Source: a virus (lineage: Duplodnaviria; Caudoviricetes). Taken from it: a stretch of DNA of 64,000 nucleotides. This document shows positions 41,265 through 49,073 of the stretch, piece after piece; within the stretch, counting starts at the first letter, position 1; the number at the start of each line of letters is the position of its first letter. The notes under the pieces were generated by a model, which was not told the origin of the DNA, searched no databases, and saw only the letters and a list, made by a program, of their open reading frames with translations. The translations under genes and the position numbers were made by a program. The stretch spans positions 1 through 64,000 of the IMG/VR virus record IMGVR_UViG_3300029305_003514; one strand, given 5' to 3'.

Positions 41265-42731
41265 TTATTCTCCTTCTATACTTTCTGCTTCTTCTATATC
41301 AGGAGCTTCGGCTTCAACTTTAACGATACCCTCTAGAGCTTTGAAAGACCAGTTCTTATGTTTATAAGCACAGAACTTAGGACGATTCAGAATACGCACT
41401 ACTACACCTTCGCGCACATGAGTTTTACCAATTGGATCGGGGCCATCATAGAACTGCTCGGCCATAGCCTTAACAAAGTTACCTGCATCATAGTAACACT
41501 TAAAATCTGCCTGCATGGTATCATATTCATCAAGATACTTGGTGAAGACACAATAATCATCAGGAATAGTACCCTTCCACATTACAGGAACAGTTTTTAC
41601 ACCCATTTGCTCACAACGATAACGCATAAAGTCAGGAGTGTATTCAACCACATCGCCATCTTCATTAGTCATAGTCATACGATAAACATAGATTTCAGAC
41701 TGAGGAGCGGGTTCATACATTTTTGCCTCGTTTACGGTTGAAGTAATGTCTCCGATACACATAGTCCCACTAATCATCTGGAAAGGAGACTCCTTCTTTC
41801 CATCTGGATAACATCCATAACTGAAAGTAGTAGTCTTACCATACTGCTTAACAAATTCCTTATCATTCAGCTTCTTATTGTCAGCAGTAGACATAATAGG
41901 AGTGCCAGTATGAGTGAAACCTACAACTTCGTAGAAAATCTCTTCGCCCTTCCAAAGCTTGCCCTCAAAGAACTTAGAATGCTGCTCACGGAACTCGTTG
42001 GAGCCATAATATCCACCATCATAATCCTCAAGAACAACACGGCGAGTACCAGACACATAACCCCAATCGTAAATAGGAGTGCCCTCACGCTTACAAATCT
42101 TGTCCCATAGAGTGCGCTTATAGCCCTTAAATACGGGCAGATAAGCAGTTCTTTGACTGGTGCCATGCATCTTTAGAGTAATCTCAATTTCATCACCAGG
42201 CTTAAATGCGGCCAGATTGTATGCAAGCTGCTCAGTATCAGCATGTTCGGTAAAAAGAGGAGCTATATTTATTTTCTTTTTGCGGGTTTTATTTCCACCA
42301 TCGCTAGTATGACTCCGGGGATTACGGCGAGGAATATATTTATTACAGATTGCATGACCATTGAAAACATCAATTCTATCTCCTTCCTTAAGAGTGGTAA
42401 TATCACCAAAAGATTCAAGAGACTTTAGAGGAAGAAACAAGCCATCAGACTTTTCGCCACGAAGCTTAATAGCAGTAATATTGCGCTTAGATTCATCCAT
42501 GTAACCGCCAATATTATTGCCTGCATCATCTTTCTTACGAAGCAGATTATTAGCCTCTGCAAACTCAACACTTACCTGTCCGTCAGAAGGGAAATAAATA
42601 CCAAGCTGATTATCAGTATAATCCATAGAAACAATTACAGTATTTCCAAAACATTCACCCATCTGCAGACGATCAGCATTAGGATGAGGTCTCAAATTCT
42701 TAATCCTAGTAATAAATGCTGTATAAGCCAT
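41265..42731 (-). CDS. ATP-dependent RNA ligase with N-terminal OB/tRNA-binding-like domain
   Basis: HPNADRL N-terminus, LKMHGT (motif I), YEVVG, REGVV and YKHK. Confidence 0.85.
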   Translation of the reverse strand: MAYTAFITRIKNLRPHPNADRLQMGECFGNTVIVSMDYTDNQLGIYFPSDGQVSVEFAEANNLLRKKDDAGNNIGGYMDESKRNITAIKLRGEKSDGLFLPLKSLESFGDITTLKEGDRIDVFNGHAICNKYIPRRNPRSHTSDGGNKTRKKKINIAPLFTEHADTEQLAYNLAAFKPGDEIEITLKMHGTSQRTAYLPVFKGYKRTLWDKICKREGTPIYDWGYVSGTRRVVLEDYDGGYYGSNEFREQHSKFFEGKLWKGEEIFYEVVGFTHTGTPIMSTADNKKLNDKEFVKQYGKTTTFSYGCYPDGKKESPFQMISGTMCIGDITSTVNEAKMYEPAPQSEIYVYRMTMTNEDGDVVEYTPDFMRYRCEQMGVKTVPVMWKGTIPDDYCVFTKYLDEYDTMQADFKCYYDAGNFVKAMAEQFYDGPDPIGKTHVREGVVVRILNRPKFCAYKHKNWSFKALEGIVKVEAEAPDIEEAESIEGE

Positions 42732-45102: not shown

Positions 45103-45510
45103 TTAATTCCATATTTCTTTTGCGAATCCGCCATATGTAGTATAATAAATCTTTCTGATTCCCAAAGATTTTATTAACGCTTCACAGCTCTGACAAGGTT
45201 TTGCCATTGCTTTATCACCATTTTTAAATTCACGATATATATAAATGCTGCAGTTTTTCCAATCTATATCTTTTTTATTCATAATATGCGTCAATGCACT
45301 AATTTCAGCATGTAAGCTATGCGGAGTATCTTCAGAAAATCTTTTTATATTCATTCTCTTTTGTATAGGATGACTTTTGGTTGTATTAAATCCACTAGAT
45401 ATAATATGGCGACCATTTGTTACAACACAACCTACATGAACTCTATCATAATCAGACATATATGATACTGCTTTTGCAGCATTAAAAAATGCTATATCTC
45501 TTTTATTCAT
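45103..45510 (-). CDS. Zinc-dependent cytidine/dCMP deaminase family protein
   Basis: HAE and PCQSC motifs; VGCVV..IISSGFN. Confidence 0.85.
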   Translation of the reverse strand: MNKRDIAFFNAAKAVSYMSDYDRVHVGCVVTNGRHIISSGFNTTKSHPIQKRMNIKRFSEDTPHSLHAEISALTHIMNKKDIDWKNCSIYIYREFKNGDKAMAKPCQSCEALIKSLGIRKIYYTTYGGFAKEIWN

Positions 45511-46621
45511 GTGTTTCTCCAGTTTGTCTAAGCATTAAGATAATACCTTTTAATATTTGAACTATATATTCAATATCATCTTGAGTTAATGAATCACTAA
45601 CAGTAATACGAATTGTATTTAATGCCTGCTCGTTTGTTAATCCTATGGCTATCAATGTTGAGCTTGGGATGGATTCTCCGCTACTACATGCTGACCCTGC
45701 AGATATATATATGCCATATAGGCTTGCCATTGTTACAAAGTCTGATGCTTTTATACCATCTATAGTAAGTGAAATATTATTGTATAAACGATTAGAATTT
45801 AATTCTGGCCCATTTAAATATACATCAGGGATTTCCAATAGCTTAATGGCTAGCTCATCACGAATTAGTCTTGTATTGGCATTTTTCTCTTCTTGAAATT
45901 TGCGGGCTAATTCTAATGCTTTTCCCATTCCTGCAATAGCCGCAACATTATATGTGCCGCCTCTACGATAATTTTCTTGAGATCCACCAATCAAAGGATT
46001 GAGATTAATCCCATTTCGGCAATACAGAAATCCAATACCTTTAGGGCCATTAAACTTTTGCGCTGATACAGACATCATATCAATACCAAGTTCTTTTACA
46101 TTAATACGTTGCTCTGGATAAAGCTGTGTCGCATCAACATGAAAGATATTATTATAGCGATGTATGAATTTAGAAATTGATTCAAGGTCTTGAATAACTC
46201 CGATCTCACTATTTGCCGCATGGACTGAAACCAGCCAATTATGTGCGCCAAGATCGACCAAAGTACTATTATCTAAAATAATATTACCTTTAACATCATT
46301 ATTAAAATAAAGCGGATCTTGACAAATAGTTTCAATAGATTTATGCTCTAACCTTGTTGTACATATCTTTTTAGCTGCTGTAAAAGCAAGACTATTTGCT
46401 TCACATGCACCACTTGTAAAAATAATTTCTTCCGGAAGACATCCAATATCTGCGGCAATTTGATCCCTTACTCTCTCAACAATTTCTTTAGCATCTGAAC
46501 CTAATTGATGTTGAGAAGATGGGTTGCCATAATGATTTAACATCGTATCATAAACTACATCTGCAACTTCTTTATACGGTCGAGTCGTTGATGCATTATC
46601 TAAAAAATACCCTTTCATCAT
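45503..46621 (-). CDS. iscS: Cysteine desulfurase (IscS/NifS family)
   Basis: LDNASTT, GNPSS, FTSGACEAN, HVDATQ, SAQKFNGPKG and SAGSACSS. Confidence 0.92.
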   Translation of the reverse strand: MMKGYFLDNASTTRPYKEVADVVYDTMLNHYGNPSSQHQLGSDAKEIVERVRDQIAADIGCLPEEIIFTSGACEANSLAFTAAKKICTTRLEHKSIETICQDPLYFNNDVKGNIILDNSTLVDLGAHNWLVSVHAANSEIGVIQDLESISKFIHRYNNIFHVDATQLYPEQRINVKELGIDMMSVSAQKFNGPKGIGFLYCRNGINLNPLIGGSQENYRRGGTYNVAAIAGMGKALELARKFQEEKNANTRLIRDELAIKLLEIPDVYLNGPELNSNRLYNNISLTIDGIKASDFVTMASLYGIYISAGSACSSGESIPSSTLIAIGLTNEQALNTIRITVSDSLTQDDIEYIVQILKGIILMLRQTGETHE

Positions 46622-46687: not shown

Positions 46688-46713
46688 AGAAAAGGGCGTA
46701 TAAAAACGCCCTT
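46688..46713 (-). terminator. Terminator ending the tRNA cluster transcript
   Basis: aagggcgt...acgccctt, with a minus-strand T tract. Confidence 0.65.
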
Positions 46714-46903: not shown

Positions 46904-46978
46904 TGGAGCTGGTAACAGGACTCGAACCTGCAACCCAGTGATTACAAATCACTTACGCTACCATTGCGCCATACCAGC
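46904..46978 (-). tRNA. tRNA-Thr(UGU)
   Basis: Cloverleaf; anticodon arm AGTGA-TTTGTAA-TCACT; encoded CCA. Confidence 0.93.
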
Positions 46979-47009
46979 AAATATGTCACCTTAGTGACAA
47001 GTTTAAACT

Positions 47010-47168
47010 TTATCTTTGATTCCTTAGTATATATCTAAGATATTCAAATGCCGCAGTTAGTTCTGCATTAGCATAATCCAACATATCTTCAGAGCAATTA
47101 TTAAAAAGAAATTCGGCATATTCAAGCCTATCTTTTGCATATCTTAATTCATCTTTTTCATTAAACAT
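47010..47168 (-). CDS. YaaL/DUF2508-like small protein (52 aa, not in ORF track)
   Basis: MFNEKDELRYAKDRLEYAEFLFNNCSEDMLDYANAELTAAFEYLRYILRNQR; SD AGGAG. Confidence 0.55.
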   Translation of the reverse strand: MFNEKDELRYAKDRLEYAEFLFNNCSEDMLDYANAELTAAFEYLRYILRNQR

Positions 47169-47304
47169 TGTAATTCTCCTAATTGAATAATTAAGCTGGC
47201 TACTGCACCTTGTACTTCGGCATCAACACCAGTAATCGGTAACGATGCAGGCACCGTCTCCTTTAAGGCTAATCCTTTCAAGCAATATTTAAGTCTCACT
47301 TACT

Positions 47305-47399
47305 TGGCGGAGCAGATTGGACTTGAACCAACACGACAAGCAGAGCTCATCTACTGGCTGTTTAGCAAACAGCTGCCTTACCATTAGGCTTACTGCTCC
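47305..47399 (-). tRNA. tRNA-Ser(GCU)
   Basis: Anticodon arm GCTGT-TTGCTAA-ACAGC, long variable arm, G73 and CCA. Confidence 0.92.
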
Positions 47400-47533
47400 T
47401 CATCTTTATGTTTCTTCTTGCGCGAATATTTAAATCCTTTACCCTTTTTGGGAGTTATTTGTGTTCCTCGTCTCTTAAACTGAAGATATTCTCTTAATTC
47501 CTCAGGGGTTTTCTTAAAAATACTTTTATCCAT
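47390..47533 (-). CDS. ArfA-like basic micro-protein (47 aa, not in ORF track); stop codon inside tRNA-Ser
   Basis: MDKSIFKKTPEELREYLQFKRRGTQITPKKGKGFKYSRKKKHKDEEQ with SD AAGGGAG. The KKGKG..Y.RK.KH motif resembles ArfA. Confidence 0.65.
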   Translation of the reverse strand: MDKSIFKKTPEELREYLQFKRRGTQITPKKGKGFKYSRKKKHKDEEQ

Positions 47534-47555
47534 AATTAAACTCCCTTCTTTTAAT

Positions 47556-47629
47556 TGGTGGAAAATGTCGGAATCGAACCGCTACCCATGCTCCCAAGGC
47601 AAGTGTGTTACCATTACACTACATTCTCC
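47556..47629 (-). tRNA. tRNA-Pro(UGG), atypical acceptor/T stems
   Basis: Anticodon loop CTTGGGA, TTCGATT T-loop and CCA; folds best with an 8-bp acceptor stem and 4-bp T stem. Confidence 0.8.
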
Positions 47630-47735
47630 ATATACCTTTTAAACTGGCTCATGCAAGAGCGTCCTCTCGTTCTAACCAGTTATAAGGTGAACACAATTCA
47701 TAGTGTTCCTCTGCATGATTTAATAGAACCTTACT

Positions 47736-47811
47736 TGGGGGCGGTGGCTGGATTCGAACCAGCGATTCCTAGCTTATGGGGCTAGTGAGATGACCACTTC
47801 TCTACACCGCT
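47736..47811 (-). tRNA. tRNA-Met(CAU), initiator-like
   Basis: CTAGC-CCCATAA-GCTAG, 1x72 mismatch, A11:U24 and CCA. Confidence 0.88.
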
Positions 47812-47926
47812 ATATTACGCCTAGCGTCCGCAGAACCTCGTTGCGCACCGATAGGTTTTTAACAGAGATAGCAGTAAAAGTAATGAGCTGAACCGCACAA
47901 ACGTTAACATAACCAACTAGGCTGAC

Positions 47927-48002
47927 TGGTTGGGCTGGCGGGATTCGAACCTGCGGAATGACGGAGTCAAAGTCCGTTGCCTTACCACTTGGCTACAGCC
48001 CA
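47927..48002 (-). tRNA. tRNA-Gln(UUG)
   Basis: ACGGA-CTTTGAC-TCCGT, U1:A72 and CCA. Confidence 0.93.
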
Positions 48003-48221
48003 ATATTAATATGGTCTGTCCCACTGTCAAGCGTCTTTCCGCTTTGTCATTTGGTATCTTTATAAAGCGAGGCCGCACATGACCTCAAAATAAATCGTCC
48101 GACGCATCTATTCTCAGCATTGTTAATTCTTAATCGTTATCGGAACCAAATAGCTACTTAAGGTTACGGCTTCTACCTTCGATGTACATATTATTTATTT
48201 TTTGTGCTACTCTATAAAGAT

Positions 48222-48297
48222 TGGTGTTCCCTGCGGGATTCGAACCCACGACCCTTTGATTAAAAGTCAAATGCTCTACCGACTGAGCTAAGAGAAC
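48222..48297 (-). tRNA. tRNA-Lys(UUU)
   Basis: TTTGA-CTTTTAA-TCAAA and CCA. Confidence 0.95.
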
Positions 48298-48300
48298 ATA

Positions 48301-48377
48301 TGGTACCGGTGGCAGGACTCGAACCTGTAAAAACTAGTTCCTAAGACTAGCGCCTATGCCAATTCGGCTACACCGGC
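48301..48377 (-). tRNA. tRNA-Leu(UAG) lacking the long variable arm
   Basis: CTAGT-CTTAGGA-ACTAG; variable region is only TTTTT; A73 and CCA. Confidence 0.88.
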
Positions 48378-48448
48378 ATGTAAAGAGCAACTCGGATTTG
48401 AAGATTCCACTTTTATCTCTCCGATATAACTACATTGCTCTATGTGGA

Positions 48449-48524
48449 TGGCTCCTCGTACTGGGCTCGAACCAGTGACCCTGCGGTTAACAGCCGCATG
48501 CTCTACCTACTGAGCTAACGAGGA
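48449..48524 (-). tRNA. tRNA-Asn(GUU)
   Basis: TGCGG-CTGTTAA-CCGCA, G73 and CCA. Confidence 0.95.
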
Positions 48525-48533
48525 ATATGTAAT

Positions 48534-48872
48534 TGATAGAATTGATATCCTACACTCTAACCTAGCCCTAAGGCTGCTAGAACCTCTCCAATAATTTTGT
48601 ATTGCTTTCCACGCCTCGGAATATCAATTGAAGTCTATCGTTGTACAATTACTAGGTACTTCTTCCTAGGTCAAATCTCTACTTAATCCCGCCTATTCTG
48701 GGTATCGATATGACTTGACTGCTTATGCCATTAAGCATCGAAAGATTTTAATAAACCATCTTCCACACTCAGGTAAACTTATTATTCTTTCGTATAGGCT
48801 AATACCTGGCTCTCATAGGCTTGATTTGCATTTTCTTAAATAGAGTGCTAATCCCTATTCCCATCTCTATCA
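48534..48872 (-). ncRNA. Putative structured ncRNA (about 340 nt) in the tRNA cluster
   Basis: Ends pair (tgataga/tctatca), long-range cactcta/tagagtg and aattgatat/atatcaatt pairings, and no ORF in the track. Confidence 0.5.
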
Positions 48873-48919
48873 TTATAGTTAATGAACCAGCCAAGATATA
48901 TCATTTCACTTGGACTTCT

Positions 48920-49006
48920 TGGTGGCCCAGACCGGACTCGAACCGGTACGCTGTTGTCAGCAAGGGATTTTAAGTCCCTGGTGTCTGCCAATTCCACCAC
49001 TGGGCC
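48920..49006 (-). tRNA. tRNA-Leu(UAA)
   Basis: AGGGA-CTTAAAA-TCCCT, long variable arm and CCA. Confidence 0.95.
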
Positions 49007-49073
49007 ATAACTTTAATTTTGTATCGTAATTATATCATATATTTTTCAATTTGTCAATAGATTTTATAAAGTT

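What the first reader, a model, noticed from the sequence alone, without database searches (positions are those of the whole stretch)
47305..47555. ArfA-like ribosome-rescue micro-protein whose stop codon sits inside tRNA-Ser: RNase P would make a non-stop mRNA
Seen in sequence: a 47-aa ORF (47390-47533, minus strand, good SD) lies between tRNA-Pro and tRNA-Ser. It reads ...LQFKRRGTQITPKKGKGFKYSRKKKH, and its last 10 nt, including TAA, are the first 10 nt of mature tRNA-Ser. Established: E. coli ArfA contains [23 protein letters not shown]. ArfA (via RNase III cleavage) and Bacillus BrfA (via an internal terminator) are made from non-stop mRNAs, so tmRNA tagging destroys them unless trans-translation is saturated. 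Inference: 5' maturation of tRNA-Ser removes the stop codon and gives the same tmRNA-sensing feedback by a different route, tRNA processing. The phage would then carry a backup ribosome-rescue factor that accumulates when host defences fragment RNA.
Basis: partly seen in the sequence, partly recalled or inferred. Interest (0 to 1): 0.88.

Follow-up and report, generated by a model that had tools for sequence, protein, structure and literature searches.

The report
Phage ArfA-like peptide overlapping tRNA-Ser
A large phage of gut Firmicutes carries, inside its tRNA cluster, a real 47-residue gene whose tail matches the ribosome-docking tail of the bacterial rescue factor ArfA and whose stop codon lies inside the next tRNA, so tRNA maturation should leave its message without a stop codon; the rescue activity and this regulation are both untested.

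Summary
Observation confirmed. The ORF 47533..47390 (-) has a good SD and sits 22 nt after tRNA-Pro. Its TAA is nt 8-10 of tRNA-Ser(GCU).

The gene is real: pN/pS is 0.05-0.19. It belongs to a family of at least 131 clusters found in large Bacillota phages of gut and rumen.

The window ORF alone is a weak ArfA match (Pfam 9.2 bits against a cut-off of 25.5). The family is a clear match:
- 46 of 61 members hit PF03889.
- hhalign against ArfA gives 93-95% probability.
- The family profile finds only ArfA chains in the whole PDB.

The similarity covers the mRNA-tunnel tail (ArfA residues about 25-47). It does not cover the RF2-activating N-terminus.

KH-type members sit in tRNA arrays, and one clade lies about 400 nt from a phage tmRNA.

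The gene has no convincing promoter of its own and lies in a tRNA polycistron. RNase P cleavage would therefore leave a non-stop mRNA ending two residues after KH, which equals ArfA's minimal active length.

The ORF runs into a tRNA in at least five clades (Ser, Val, Gly, His, Trp). Most relatives, however, have ordinary stops, so tmRNA-coupled control is plausible but not a family trait.

This scan has flagged other phage ArfA-like peptides on other DNA. I class this one as a new variant of a known kind.

The parts
49029..49057 (-). Consensus sigma-70-type promoter (TTGACA-17-TATAAT with TG) driving the tRNA/ORF transcription unit
   Evidence: 12/12 match, directly upstream of tRNA-Leu(UAA) at 49006
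46904..49006 (-). Array of 9 tRNA genes (Leu, Asn, Leu, Lys, Gln, Met, Pro, Ser, Thr) interspersed with small ORFs
47556..47629 (-). tRNA-Pro(UGG), which ends 22 nt before the ORF's ATG
   Evidence: 45.4 bits
47541..47548 (-). Shine-Dalgarno GAAGGGAG, 7 nt before the ATG
   Evidence: read from the sequence; conserved in relatives
47390..47533 (-). 47-aa ArfA-tail peptide gene, stop codon included
   Evidence: purifying selection; family of 131 representatives
47408..47449 (-). Residues 29-42, KKGKGFKYSRKKKH: a variant of the ArfA mRNA-tunnel tail KKGKGSYxRKxKH
47390..47399 (-). 10-nt overlap of the ORF 3' end (G-GAG-CAG-TAA) with nt 1-10 of tRNA-Ser; predicted RNase P cut between 47400 and 47399
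   Evidence: invariant in all relatives
47305..47399 (-). tRNA-Ser(GCU), class II with long variable arm and encoded CCA
   Evidence: 54.4 bits; cloverleaf forms in context; compensatory changes in the anticodon stem among relatives
46692..46713 (-). Intrinsic terminator that closes the tRNA/ORF unit
   Evidence: 8-bp stem with 5 GC pairs plus T-run, followed by a second perfect promoter at 46677-46649

Best explanation
The ORF is a genuine gene for a small basic peptide. Its family is carried by large phages of gut and rumen Bacillota, typically inside their tRNA arrays. Its C-terminal half is the ArfA-type tail (KKGKG..RKxKH). In ArfA this tail threads into the empty mRNA tunnel of a ribosome stalled at the 3' end of a broken message. 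The N-terminal helix (EELxEYLxF) is inferred to recruit or activate a class-I release factor that frees the ribosome. The gene has no convincing promoter of its own: it is transcribed from the promoter at 49057-49029 within a tRNA polycistron that ends at the terminator at 46713-46692. Its stop codon is nt 8-10 of tRNA-Ser. Every transcript on which RNase P has matured tRNA-Ser therefore ends at 47400, two residues after KH, with no stop codon. By analogy with ArfA and BrfA, the product of that non-stop message would be SsrA-tagged and degraded while host trans-translation has spare capacity, and would accumulate when it is saturated. Shown: gene reality, family, tail similarity to ArfA, tRNA-array and tmRNA association, transcription-unit layout, and the geometry of the overlap. 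Inferred: ribosome binding, release-factor recruitment, the extent of processing before translation, and tmRNA coupling.
For: Real gene: pN/pS is 0.05-0.19 against relatives with pS 0.48-0.68, and there are 131 representative clusters.
ArfA tail: 46 of 61 members hit PF03889, best E 4.5e-7. Individual members score 18-28.5 bits on profile positions 22-44. hhalign gives 93.5% and 95.4%. The family profile hits only six ArfA chains in 177,635 PDB sequences, E 2.5e-4 to 1e-3. Real ArfA scores 19.5-25.7 bits on the family HMM against a maximum of 9.6 for shuffles. Some members share a 13-residue string, KKGKGSYKRKAKH, with an Enterobacterales ArfA.
Context: KH-type members lie in tRNA arrays. In L029, L030 and L078 a phage tmRNA lies about 400 nt downstream.
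Single transcription unit. The tRNA-Ser cloverleaf folds in context.
Junction: kept in three diverged variants with different flanking tRNAs. The ORF also runs into tRNA-Val (L100, stop at nt 8-10), tRNA-Gly (L017, L036/L028), tRNA-His (L012) and tRNA-Trp (L099).
Length: the truncated product would end at H42+2, and ArfA stays active when cut at N47, which is H45+2 (PMC5378476).
Against: The window ORF itself is below every curated threshold: PF03889 at 9.2 bits, E 1.1, and no NCBIfam hit. Against an ArfA HMM, 6 of 2000 shuffles reach its score. It has Phe where the family has the motif Ser, plus a one-residue insertion. Pfam aligns only the tail, and the N-terminal alignment to ArfA's RF2-binding patch is weak. 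A shared, highly basic tunnel-binding motif could be convergent. Most family members have ordinary stop codons: 5-14 nt before tRNA-Glu, 23-26 nt before tRNA-Val, or with no tRNA nearby. The 'FKKGE' subtype never sits near tRNAs. Non-stop synthesis is therefore not required for the family's function. A ribosome translating the unprocessed precursor would reach the TAA and could delay RNase P. There are no expression or RNA-end data.
Confidence: 0.45

Rival explanations
1. It is an ArfA-like rescue peptide, but the stop-in-tRNA overlap is incidental. It would be a by-product of tight packing and tRNA shuffling in the array. The peptide would be made with normal termination from the unprocessed precursor, or its short extra tail would be irrelevant, so expression is effectively constitutive, as for relatives with ordinary stops.
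For: Most relatives end with ordinary stops and many have no tRNA nearby. Only about 3 codons separate KH from the tRNA, so the absence of an earlier stop is expected by chance. U8-A9-R10 of tRNAs often reads as a stop. The overlap itself enforces co-inheritance, which would explain the conserved junction. Close relatives L012 and L097 enter the tRNA in different frames because of a 2-nt indel, so the part inside the tRNA is not selected as protein.
Against: No convincing promoter or terminator separates the ORF from tRNA-Ser, and the tRNA folds in context. Some non-stop message is therefore unavoidable once RNase P acts. The arrangement recurs with five tRNA identities. It is established that B. 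subtilis-type hosts uncouple transcription from translation, which favours processing before the ribosome arrives.
Confidence: 0.27
2. The peptide uses an ArfA-type tail to enter the vacant mRNA tunnel but does something other than release-factor-dependent rescue. Examples would be blocking or marking free 30S/70S particles to favour phage messages, competing with tmRNA-SmpB, or recruiting a different partner. The tail would be shared or convergent, and the N-terminus unrelated to ArfA.
For: Pfam and PDB matches cover only ArfA residues about 25-47. The N-terminal 20 residues have no significant match: there is only a weak DUF4224 hit below the cut-off. ArfT and ArfA are thought to share a similar basic tail without common descent (PMC6299226).
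Against: hhalign extends the alignment to ArfA 14-30 and pairs Y16 and F19 with L19 and F25 of ArfA's RF2-binding patch (PMC5378476). The size and the position of the tail match ArfA. The location among tRNAs and beside a phage tmRNA fits rescue better than inhibition.
Confidence: 0.2
3. It is not a functional gene: a chance ORF in a tRNA spacer with a chance lysine-rich resemblance to ArfA.
For: The ORF is very short and lysine-rich, and its single-sequence scores are below threshold.
Against: There is strong purifying selection, a conserved SD, 131 diverged homologous clusters, and family-level ArfA matches far above composition-matched shuffles.
Confidence: 0.03

Closest known systems
ArfA (YhdL), Pfam PF03889; PDB 5MDV, 5MGP, 5U4I, 5H5U, 7OJ0
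   Same: Both are small peptides (mature ArfA is 52-55 aa). The KKGKG(S)Y-RK-KH tail sits at the same distance from the N-terminus. Aromatic and aliphatic residues, and an F-(K/R)-x-R stretch, lie just upstream. The gene layout makes the stop codon absent from the processed mRNA. The predicted truncated product ends at the position equivalent to ArfA's minimal active length.
   Different: The window ORF fails the Pfam threshold and has F for S plus a one-residue insertion. The N-terminal minidomain is not recognisably shared. The hosts are Bacillota phages, not beta- or gammaproteobacteria. The truncating device would be RNase P at a tRNA, not RNase III or a hairpin inside the ORF, and only 3 residues would be lost rather than about 17. 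Most family members have normal stops.
BrfA (YqkK) of Bacillus subtilis (PMC6881298)
   Same: [quoted passage not shown] The regulatory logic is the same as proposed here.
   Different: BrfA is reported to have no obvious sequence similarity to ArfA. Its truncation comes from an intrinsic terminator inside the ORF. It is chromosomal and restricted to Bacillaceae. I did not compare sequences directly.
ArfT of Francisella (PMC6299226)
   Same: It is a 40-aa peptide with a basic KKGGS-type tail thought to bind the vacant tunnel, which shows that such tails recur in rescue factors.
   Different: [quoted passage not shown]
Phage genes already annotated as ArfA (e.g. Citromicrobium phage vB_CbaS-RXM g10, PMC8953757) and other phage ArfA-like peptides flagged earlier in this scan
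   Same: These are phage-borne ArfA-type peptides, some beside tRNAs or a phage tmRNA.
   Different: They are annotation-level only and are described with ordinary stop codons. None is reported with its stop codon inside a tRNA, and none from Bacillota phages as far as I could find.
tRNA punctuation of mitochondrial mRNAs
   Same: mRNA ends are created by excising flanking tRNAs, which leaves messages without a complete stop codon.
   Different: In mitochondria the stop codon is completed by polyadenylation. Here the message would stay stop-less and become a rescue substrate.

Membership tests
ArfA (Pfam PF03889) | Score at or above the curated Pfam gathering threshold (25.5 bits) | tested here: not met
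   The window ORF scores 9.2 bits, E 1.1. Relatives straddle the threshold: P0167 28.5, P0173 26.3, P0138 25.5, others 18-25 bits. 46 of 61 members match at E<=1.
ArfA (Pfam PF03889) | Conserved KGKGS motif and basic tail that occupies the mRNA tunnel (ArfA aa 31-48; PMC5378476, PMC6299226) | tested here: met
   The family consensus is KKGKGSYxRKxKH, and the window has the variant KKGKGFKYSRKKKH. hhalign gives 93.5-95.4%. The only PDB profile hits are ArfA, aligned to residues 29-47.
ArfA (Pfam PF03889) | N-terminal hydrophobic minidomain (A18, L19, L24, F25) that binds the RF2 switch loop and beta-sheet | tested here: inconclusive
   Pfam aligns only profile positions 22-44. One hhalign run extends to ArfA 14-30 and pairs Y16 with L19 and F19 with F25, at low column confidence. 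AF2 predicts a helix at residues 10-20.
ArfA (Pfam PF03889) | Synthesised from a non-stop mRNA, so that trans-translation represses it | not testable with these tools
   The sequence shows that the stop codon lies inside tRNA-Ser within one transcription unit. Most relatives have ordinary stops.
ArfA (Pfam PF03889) | RF2-dependent hydrolysis of peptidyl-tRNA on non-stop ribosomes | not testable with these tools
   This needs biochemistry or genetics.
ArfA (Pfam PF03889) | Distribution limited to beta- and gammaproteobacteria (PMC6881298, PMC11633108) | tested here: not met
   The phage's DNA polymerase III alpha is nearest to those of Clostridioides, Thomasclavelia and Bacillus phages. Full-length family hits are in Eubacteriales, Acutalibacteraceae, Clostridia, Bacilli and Carnobacterium MAGs.
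BrfA (YqkK) | Sequence homology to B. subtilis BrfA | not tested
   No BrfA sequence was retrieved. No family other than ArfA recurred in the Pfam scan of 61 members, and NCBIfam gave nothing.
BrfA (YqkK) | Intrinsic terminator inside the coding region, ahead of the stop codon | tested here: not met
   No credible terminator lies inside the ORF: the only terminator-like hit between the ORF and 46999 is the weak one at 47351-47335, inside tRNA-Ser. In relatives without a tRNA, hairpins lie after the stop codon, or enclose it in one case.

The most novel reading that the evidence does not exclude
In several clades of Bacillota phages an ArfA-like rescue factor has been wired to tRNA maturation. 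RNase P cleavage of the downstream tRNA removes the stop codon, so the factor is made from a non-stop message. It would therefore be destroyed by tmRNA tagging unless trans-translation is saturated. This would be a third, independently evolved route to the same feedback (after RNase III for ArfA and an internal terminator for BrfA), and the first in a virus. It would also extend ArfA-type, release-factor-dependent rescue to hosts thought to have only tmRNA and RQC.
Probability: 0.3. Interest if true: 0.85.

Novelty: new variant of a known kind. Interest (0 to 1): 0.62.

Why it matters
Release-factor-dependent rescue factors are thought to be narrowly distributed: ArfA in beta- and gammaproteobacteria, BrfA in Bacillaceae, ArfT in Francisella. 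Here a large, unannotated ArfA-tail family sits in phages of Clostridia and Bacilli, inside tRNA arrays and sometimes beside a phage tmRNA. That suggests phages routinely bring ribosome-rescue capacity along with tRNAs, plausibly to keep ribosomes available when messages are cut during infection or defence. The stop-in-tRNA design gives a simple, testable case in which tRNA processing sets the translational fate of a neighbouring message. The family also supplies many natural N-terminal variants on one conserved tunnel anchor, which is useful for working out how such peptides choose and activate release factors.

Tried and rejected
- Single-sequence searches gave nothing. phmmer of the ORF against the PDB had no hit, NCBIfam had none, and tblastn against 50,697 isolated phage records gave only a chance hit. 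P0148 also found nothing there, possibly because of low-complexity masking.
- The DUF4224 hit (18.1 bits, below the cut-off of 22; 6 of 61 members) was judged a weak similarity of the helix only and not pursued.
- The window's own genome has no PF03889 hit, no RF-1 domain protein and no tmRNA.
Narrower ones worked.
- Complex prediction of the peptide (alignment A3) with RF2_BACSU returned no verdict (score 0.09, mark 0.32). I count this neither for nor against binding.
- The AF2 monomer (pLDDT 71, helix at 10-20, extended tail) is too small and too extended for a meaningful fold search, so I ran none.
- I looked for BrfA-like internal terminators or ArfA-like hairpins ahead of the stop codon in relatives without a tRNA. 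None was convincing; hairpins follow the stop, or enclose it in L056.
- A control count of ORFs running into tRNA 5' ends was confounded: the loci were selected for this family, and alternative frames of tRNAs and of the gene itself are counted. I do not use it.
- Apparent long read-through forms P0130, P0133 and P0141 come from gene calls made with TAG=Q or TGA=W. Under table 11 they stop earlier.

Full report
**1. The observation**

The minus strand of 47100-47800 carries tRNA-Pro(UGG) at 47629-47556. After it come a 22-nt spacer with the SD GAAGGGAG (47548-47541), an ATG at 47533, a 47-codon ORF, and TAA at 47392-47390.

ARAGORN places tRNA-Ser(GCU) at 47399-47305. Rfam agrees on the 5' end (54.4 bits). 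The last ten bases of the ORF, GGAGCAGTAA, are therefore nt 1-10 of the tRNA, and the RNase P site falls inside codon 45.

The tRNA has a perfect 7-bp acceptor stem, a long variable arm and an encoded CCA. Its cloverleaf is the predicted fold in the context of the whole ORF.

**2. Is it a gene?**

Three close variants exist in animal-gut metagenome assemblies (P0001-P0003, 81-94% identical). I read them on ten contigs.

- Between the window and these variants, synonymous sites are nearly saturated (pS 0.48-0.68), while pN is 0.03-0.13. This indicates strong purifying selection on the protein.
- The SD is conserved.
- An exhaustive HMMER search found 131 representative clusters at E<=1e-3. The consensus is roughly MDKRIFKKxxEELQxYLxFRRRGxxVxxKKGKGSYxRKxKHKx.

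The gene is real and belongs to a large unnamed family. PHROGs gives only phrog_37108, of unknown function.

**3. Relation to ArfA**

On its own the window ORF is a weak match:
- PF03889 scores 9.2 bits, E 1.1, against a cut-off of 25.5.
- NCBIfam and the PDB give nothing.
- Against an HMM of enterobacterial ArfA it scores 8.8 bits, a score that 6 of 2000 composition-matched shuffles reach.

The family is a different matter:
- 46 of 61 members hit PF03889 at E<=1, best 4.5e-7.
- Individual members score 18-28.5 bits, straddling the gathering score.
- Profile-profile comparison with 20 enterobacterial ArfA sequences gives 93.5% and 95.4% probability.
- A profile of the family, searched against all 177,635 distinct PDB sequences, returns only six sequences. 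All are ArfA, at E 2.5e-4 to 1e-3.
- Real ArfA proteins score 19.5-25.7 bits on the family HMM, against at most 9.6 for their shuffles.
- Some members carry KKGKGSYKRKAKH, identical over 13 residues to an Enterobacterales ArfA picked up in the same scan.

The matched region is ArfA residues about 25-47. According to PMC5378476, residues 31-48 lie in the vacant mRNA tunnel, and ArfA stays active when truncated at N47 but not much further.

The N-terminal half is not matched by Pfam. One hhalign run extends to ArfA 14-30 and pairs Y16 and F19 of the phage peptide with L19 and F25 of ArfA's RF2-binding patch, but with low confidence. AF2 predicts a helix at residues 10-20 and an extended tail.

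I conclude that the tail is shared with ArfA, probably by descent, though convergence on a tunnel-binding motif cannot be excluded. The effector half is remodelled. The window ORF is a divergent member, with F for the motif's S and a one-residue insertion, a subtype also seen in P0124, P0156 and P0187.

**4. Host and context**

The window is part of a 162,354-bp IMG/VR virus record, 99% complete and 34.5% GC.

- Its DNA polymerase III alpha is closest to those of Clostridioides, Thomasclavelia and Bacillus phages.
- It encodes an anaerobic NrdD, an NAD-dependent ligase, a weak (sub-threshold) RNA-ligase-like protein and a serine recombinase.
- Full-length family members in the species-genome collection lie in MAGs of Eubacteriales, Acutalibacteraceae, Clostridia, Bacilli and Carnobacterium.

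ArfA is reported to be restricted to beta- and gammaproteobacteria and BrfA to the B. subtilis group. Most Firmicutes have only tmRNA and RqcH (PMC6881298, PMC11633108). An ArfA-tail family in Bacillota phages therefore lies outside the known range.

**5. Association with the translation apparatus**

I assembled 69 dereplicated loci from IMG/VR, metagenomes and MAGs.

- Members that keep the KH motif mostly lie inside tRNA arrays, often 22-70 nt after a tRNA.
- A subtype ending in FKKGE has no tRNA within the flanks.
- In one clade (L029, L030, L078) a phage tmRNA lies about 400 nt downstream, at Rfam 75-100 bits with tag DNNYFDSHMAA.

This association supports a role in translation or rescue. 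It is not proof.

**6. Transcription and the stop codon**

A perfect extended -10 promoter lies at 49057-49029, just before the first tRNA. A strong intrinsic terminator lies at 46713-46692, after tRNA-Thr, and is followed by another perfect promoter. Between them there are only weaker promoter-like matches and no credible terminator.

The ORF is thus co-transcribed with tRNA-Pro and tRNA-Ser. Any RNA on which RNase P has cut at 47400|47399 ends ...CAU AAA GAU GA. It encodes 44 residues ending KHKD and has no stop codon. That end is H42+2, the equivalent of ArfA's minimal active truncation at H45+2.

This much follows from the sequence and from established tRNA biology. How much of the message is translated before it is processed is unknown.

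**7. Is the junction conserved?**

Within the window's clade it is conserved. All three variants keep the ORF fused to tRNA-Ser at the same base, although the upstream tRNA is Pro, Met or a different Met and the downstream genes differ. The tRNA shows compensatory changes in its anticodon stem, so it is functional.

Across the family, the ORF runs into a tRNA without a prior stop in several other clades:
- L100: tRNA-Val, with TAG at nt 8-10, the same geometry as the window.
- L017 and L036/L028: tRNA-Gly, with the stop at nt 15-17.
- L012: tRNA-His, with the stop at nt 13-15.
- L099: the ORF reads through an entire tRNA-Trp.

L012 and its 95%-identical relative L097 enter the tRNA in different frames because of a 2-nt indel. 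The portion inside the tRNA is therefore not selected as protein. L097's tRNA has a defective acceptor stem, so this case is weaker.

Against the hypothesis, at least as many clades have a normal stop close to a tRNA:
- 5-14 nt before tRNA-Glu: L011, L016, L060, L027, L047-50, L070, L073, L098, L101.
- 23-26 nt before tRNA-Val: L034, L038, L044.

The majority of loci have a normal stop with no tRNA nearby, and I found no internal terminator or hairpin ahead of the stop in them. Non-stop synthesis is thus a recurrent option, not a family rule.

**8. Mechanism and odds**

I put about 0.65 on the peptide being a ribosome-rescue-type factor that docks in the empty mRNA tunnel.

I put about 0.35-0.45 on most of its message in this phage being non-stop through RNase P and hence coupled to trans-translation capacity.

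The main rival (0.27) keeps the rescue function but treats the overlap as incidental packing. A second rival (0.2) keeps the tunnel anchor but proposes another activity. A modelling attempt with B. subtilis RF2 gave no verdict, and expression data could not be obtained.

**9. Novelty**

Phage genes have been annotated as ArfA before (PMC8953757), and other agents in this scan flagged several phage ArfA-like peptides on other genomes. A phage ArfA-like gene is therefore not new in kind.

The following are not described in the papers I could search:
- this Bacillota-phage family;
- its systematic placement in tRNA arrays;
- the stop codon embedded in a tRNA, so that RNase P would create the non-stop message.

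I rate it a new variant of a known kind, of moderate to high interest, with a cheap and decisive experimental path.

Noticed in passing
L029:2036-2376, L030:2034-2379, L078:1534-1873: Phage-encoded tmRNA genes (Rfam 75-100 bits; ARAGORN tag DNNYFDSHMAA in L030) lie about 400 nt downstream of the ArfA-like ORF, separated from it by tRNA-Arg. These are 115-120 kb IMG/VR phages.
   Followed up: partly
L028:2631-3129: A ROOL RNA (RF03087, 236 bits, cut off by the locus end) lies about 1 kb downstream of the ArfA-like ORF in a 90-kb phage contig.
   Followed up: no
L060:1031-1103: ARAGORN calls a tRNA with anticodon UUA (an ochre suppressor) in the tRNA array that carries an ArfA-like gene. Several family members were gene-called only with TAG=Q or TGA=W (L098, L100, L101), so stop-codon recoding may occur in some of these phages.
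   Followed up: no
window 47010-47168 (-): A 52-aa ORF between tRNA-Ser and tRNA-Thr, acidic and probably helical (my reading of the sequence), is called at the same position in related contigs L005-L010. It has no Pfam family.
   Followed up: partly
window 41265-42731 (-) and 45503-46621 (-): A 488-aa protein gives weak matches, below both Pfam cut-offs, to the PHA02142 OB-fold and RNA-ligase domains. A class-V aminotransferase (cysteine-desulfurase-like) gene begins directly after the terminator of the tRNA unit. Together these could form an RNA-repair or tRNA-modification theme around the tRNA array.
   Followed up: no
L064:1477-1641 (also L096): A Carnobacterium MAG carries a 52-aa ORF with an unrelated N-terminus but the same tail, KKGKGSYKRKPKH. 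It ends 3 nt before a tRNA-Ser(GCU).
   Followed up: no
L065-L068: Patescibacteria and alphaproteobacterial (Rhodospirillales, Thalassospiraceae) MAGs encode small proteins with the identical tail KKGKGSYKR(K/R)PKH but with other N-termini. ArfA-tail proteins therefore extend beyond the beta/gamma range quoted in the literature.
   Followed up: no
P0183, P0185, P0200, P0214, P0218, P0222, P0234, P0236: In these family representatives the frame shifts within the A-rich KKGKG codons (they read KKVKAL...). This may be homopolymer sequencing error or real slippage at the lysine run.
   Followed up: no
L011, L016, L060, L047, L073, L034, L038; P0126, P0138, P0171, P0253: Members with an ordinary stop often end in ...CA or ...WA (RCA, DCA, ACA, AWA, EWA). 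This is an unexplained recurrent C-terminus, most often directly before tRNA-Glu.
   Followed up: no
L031:1620-1700: The ORF is followed by what looks like the 5' half of the tRNA-Gly found intact in L036 and L028. This is a tRNA remnant, evidence of turnover at these junctions.
   Followed up: no
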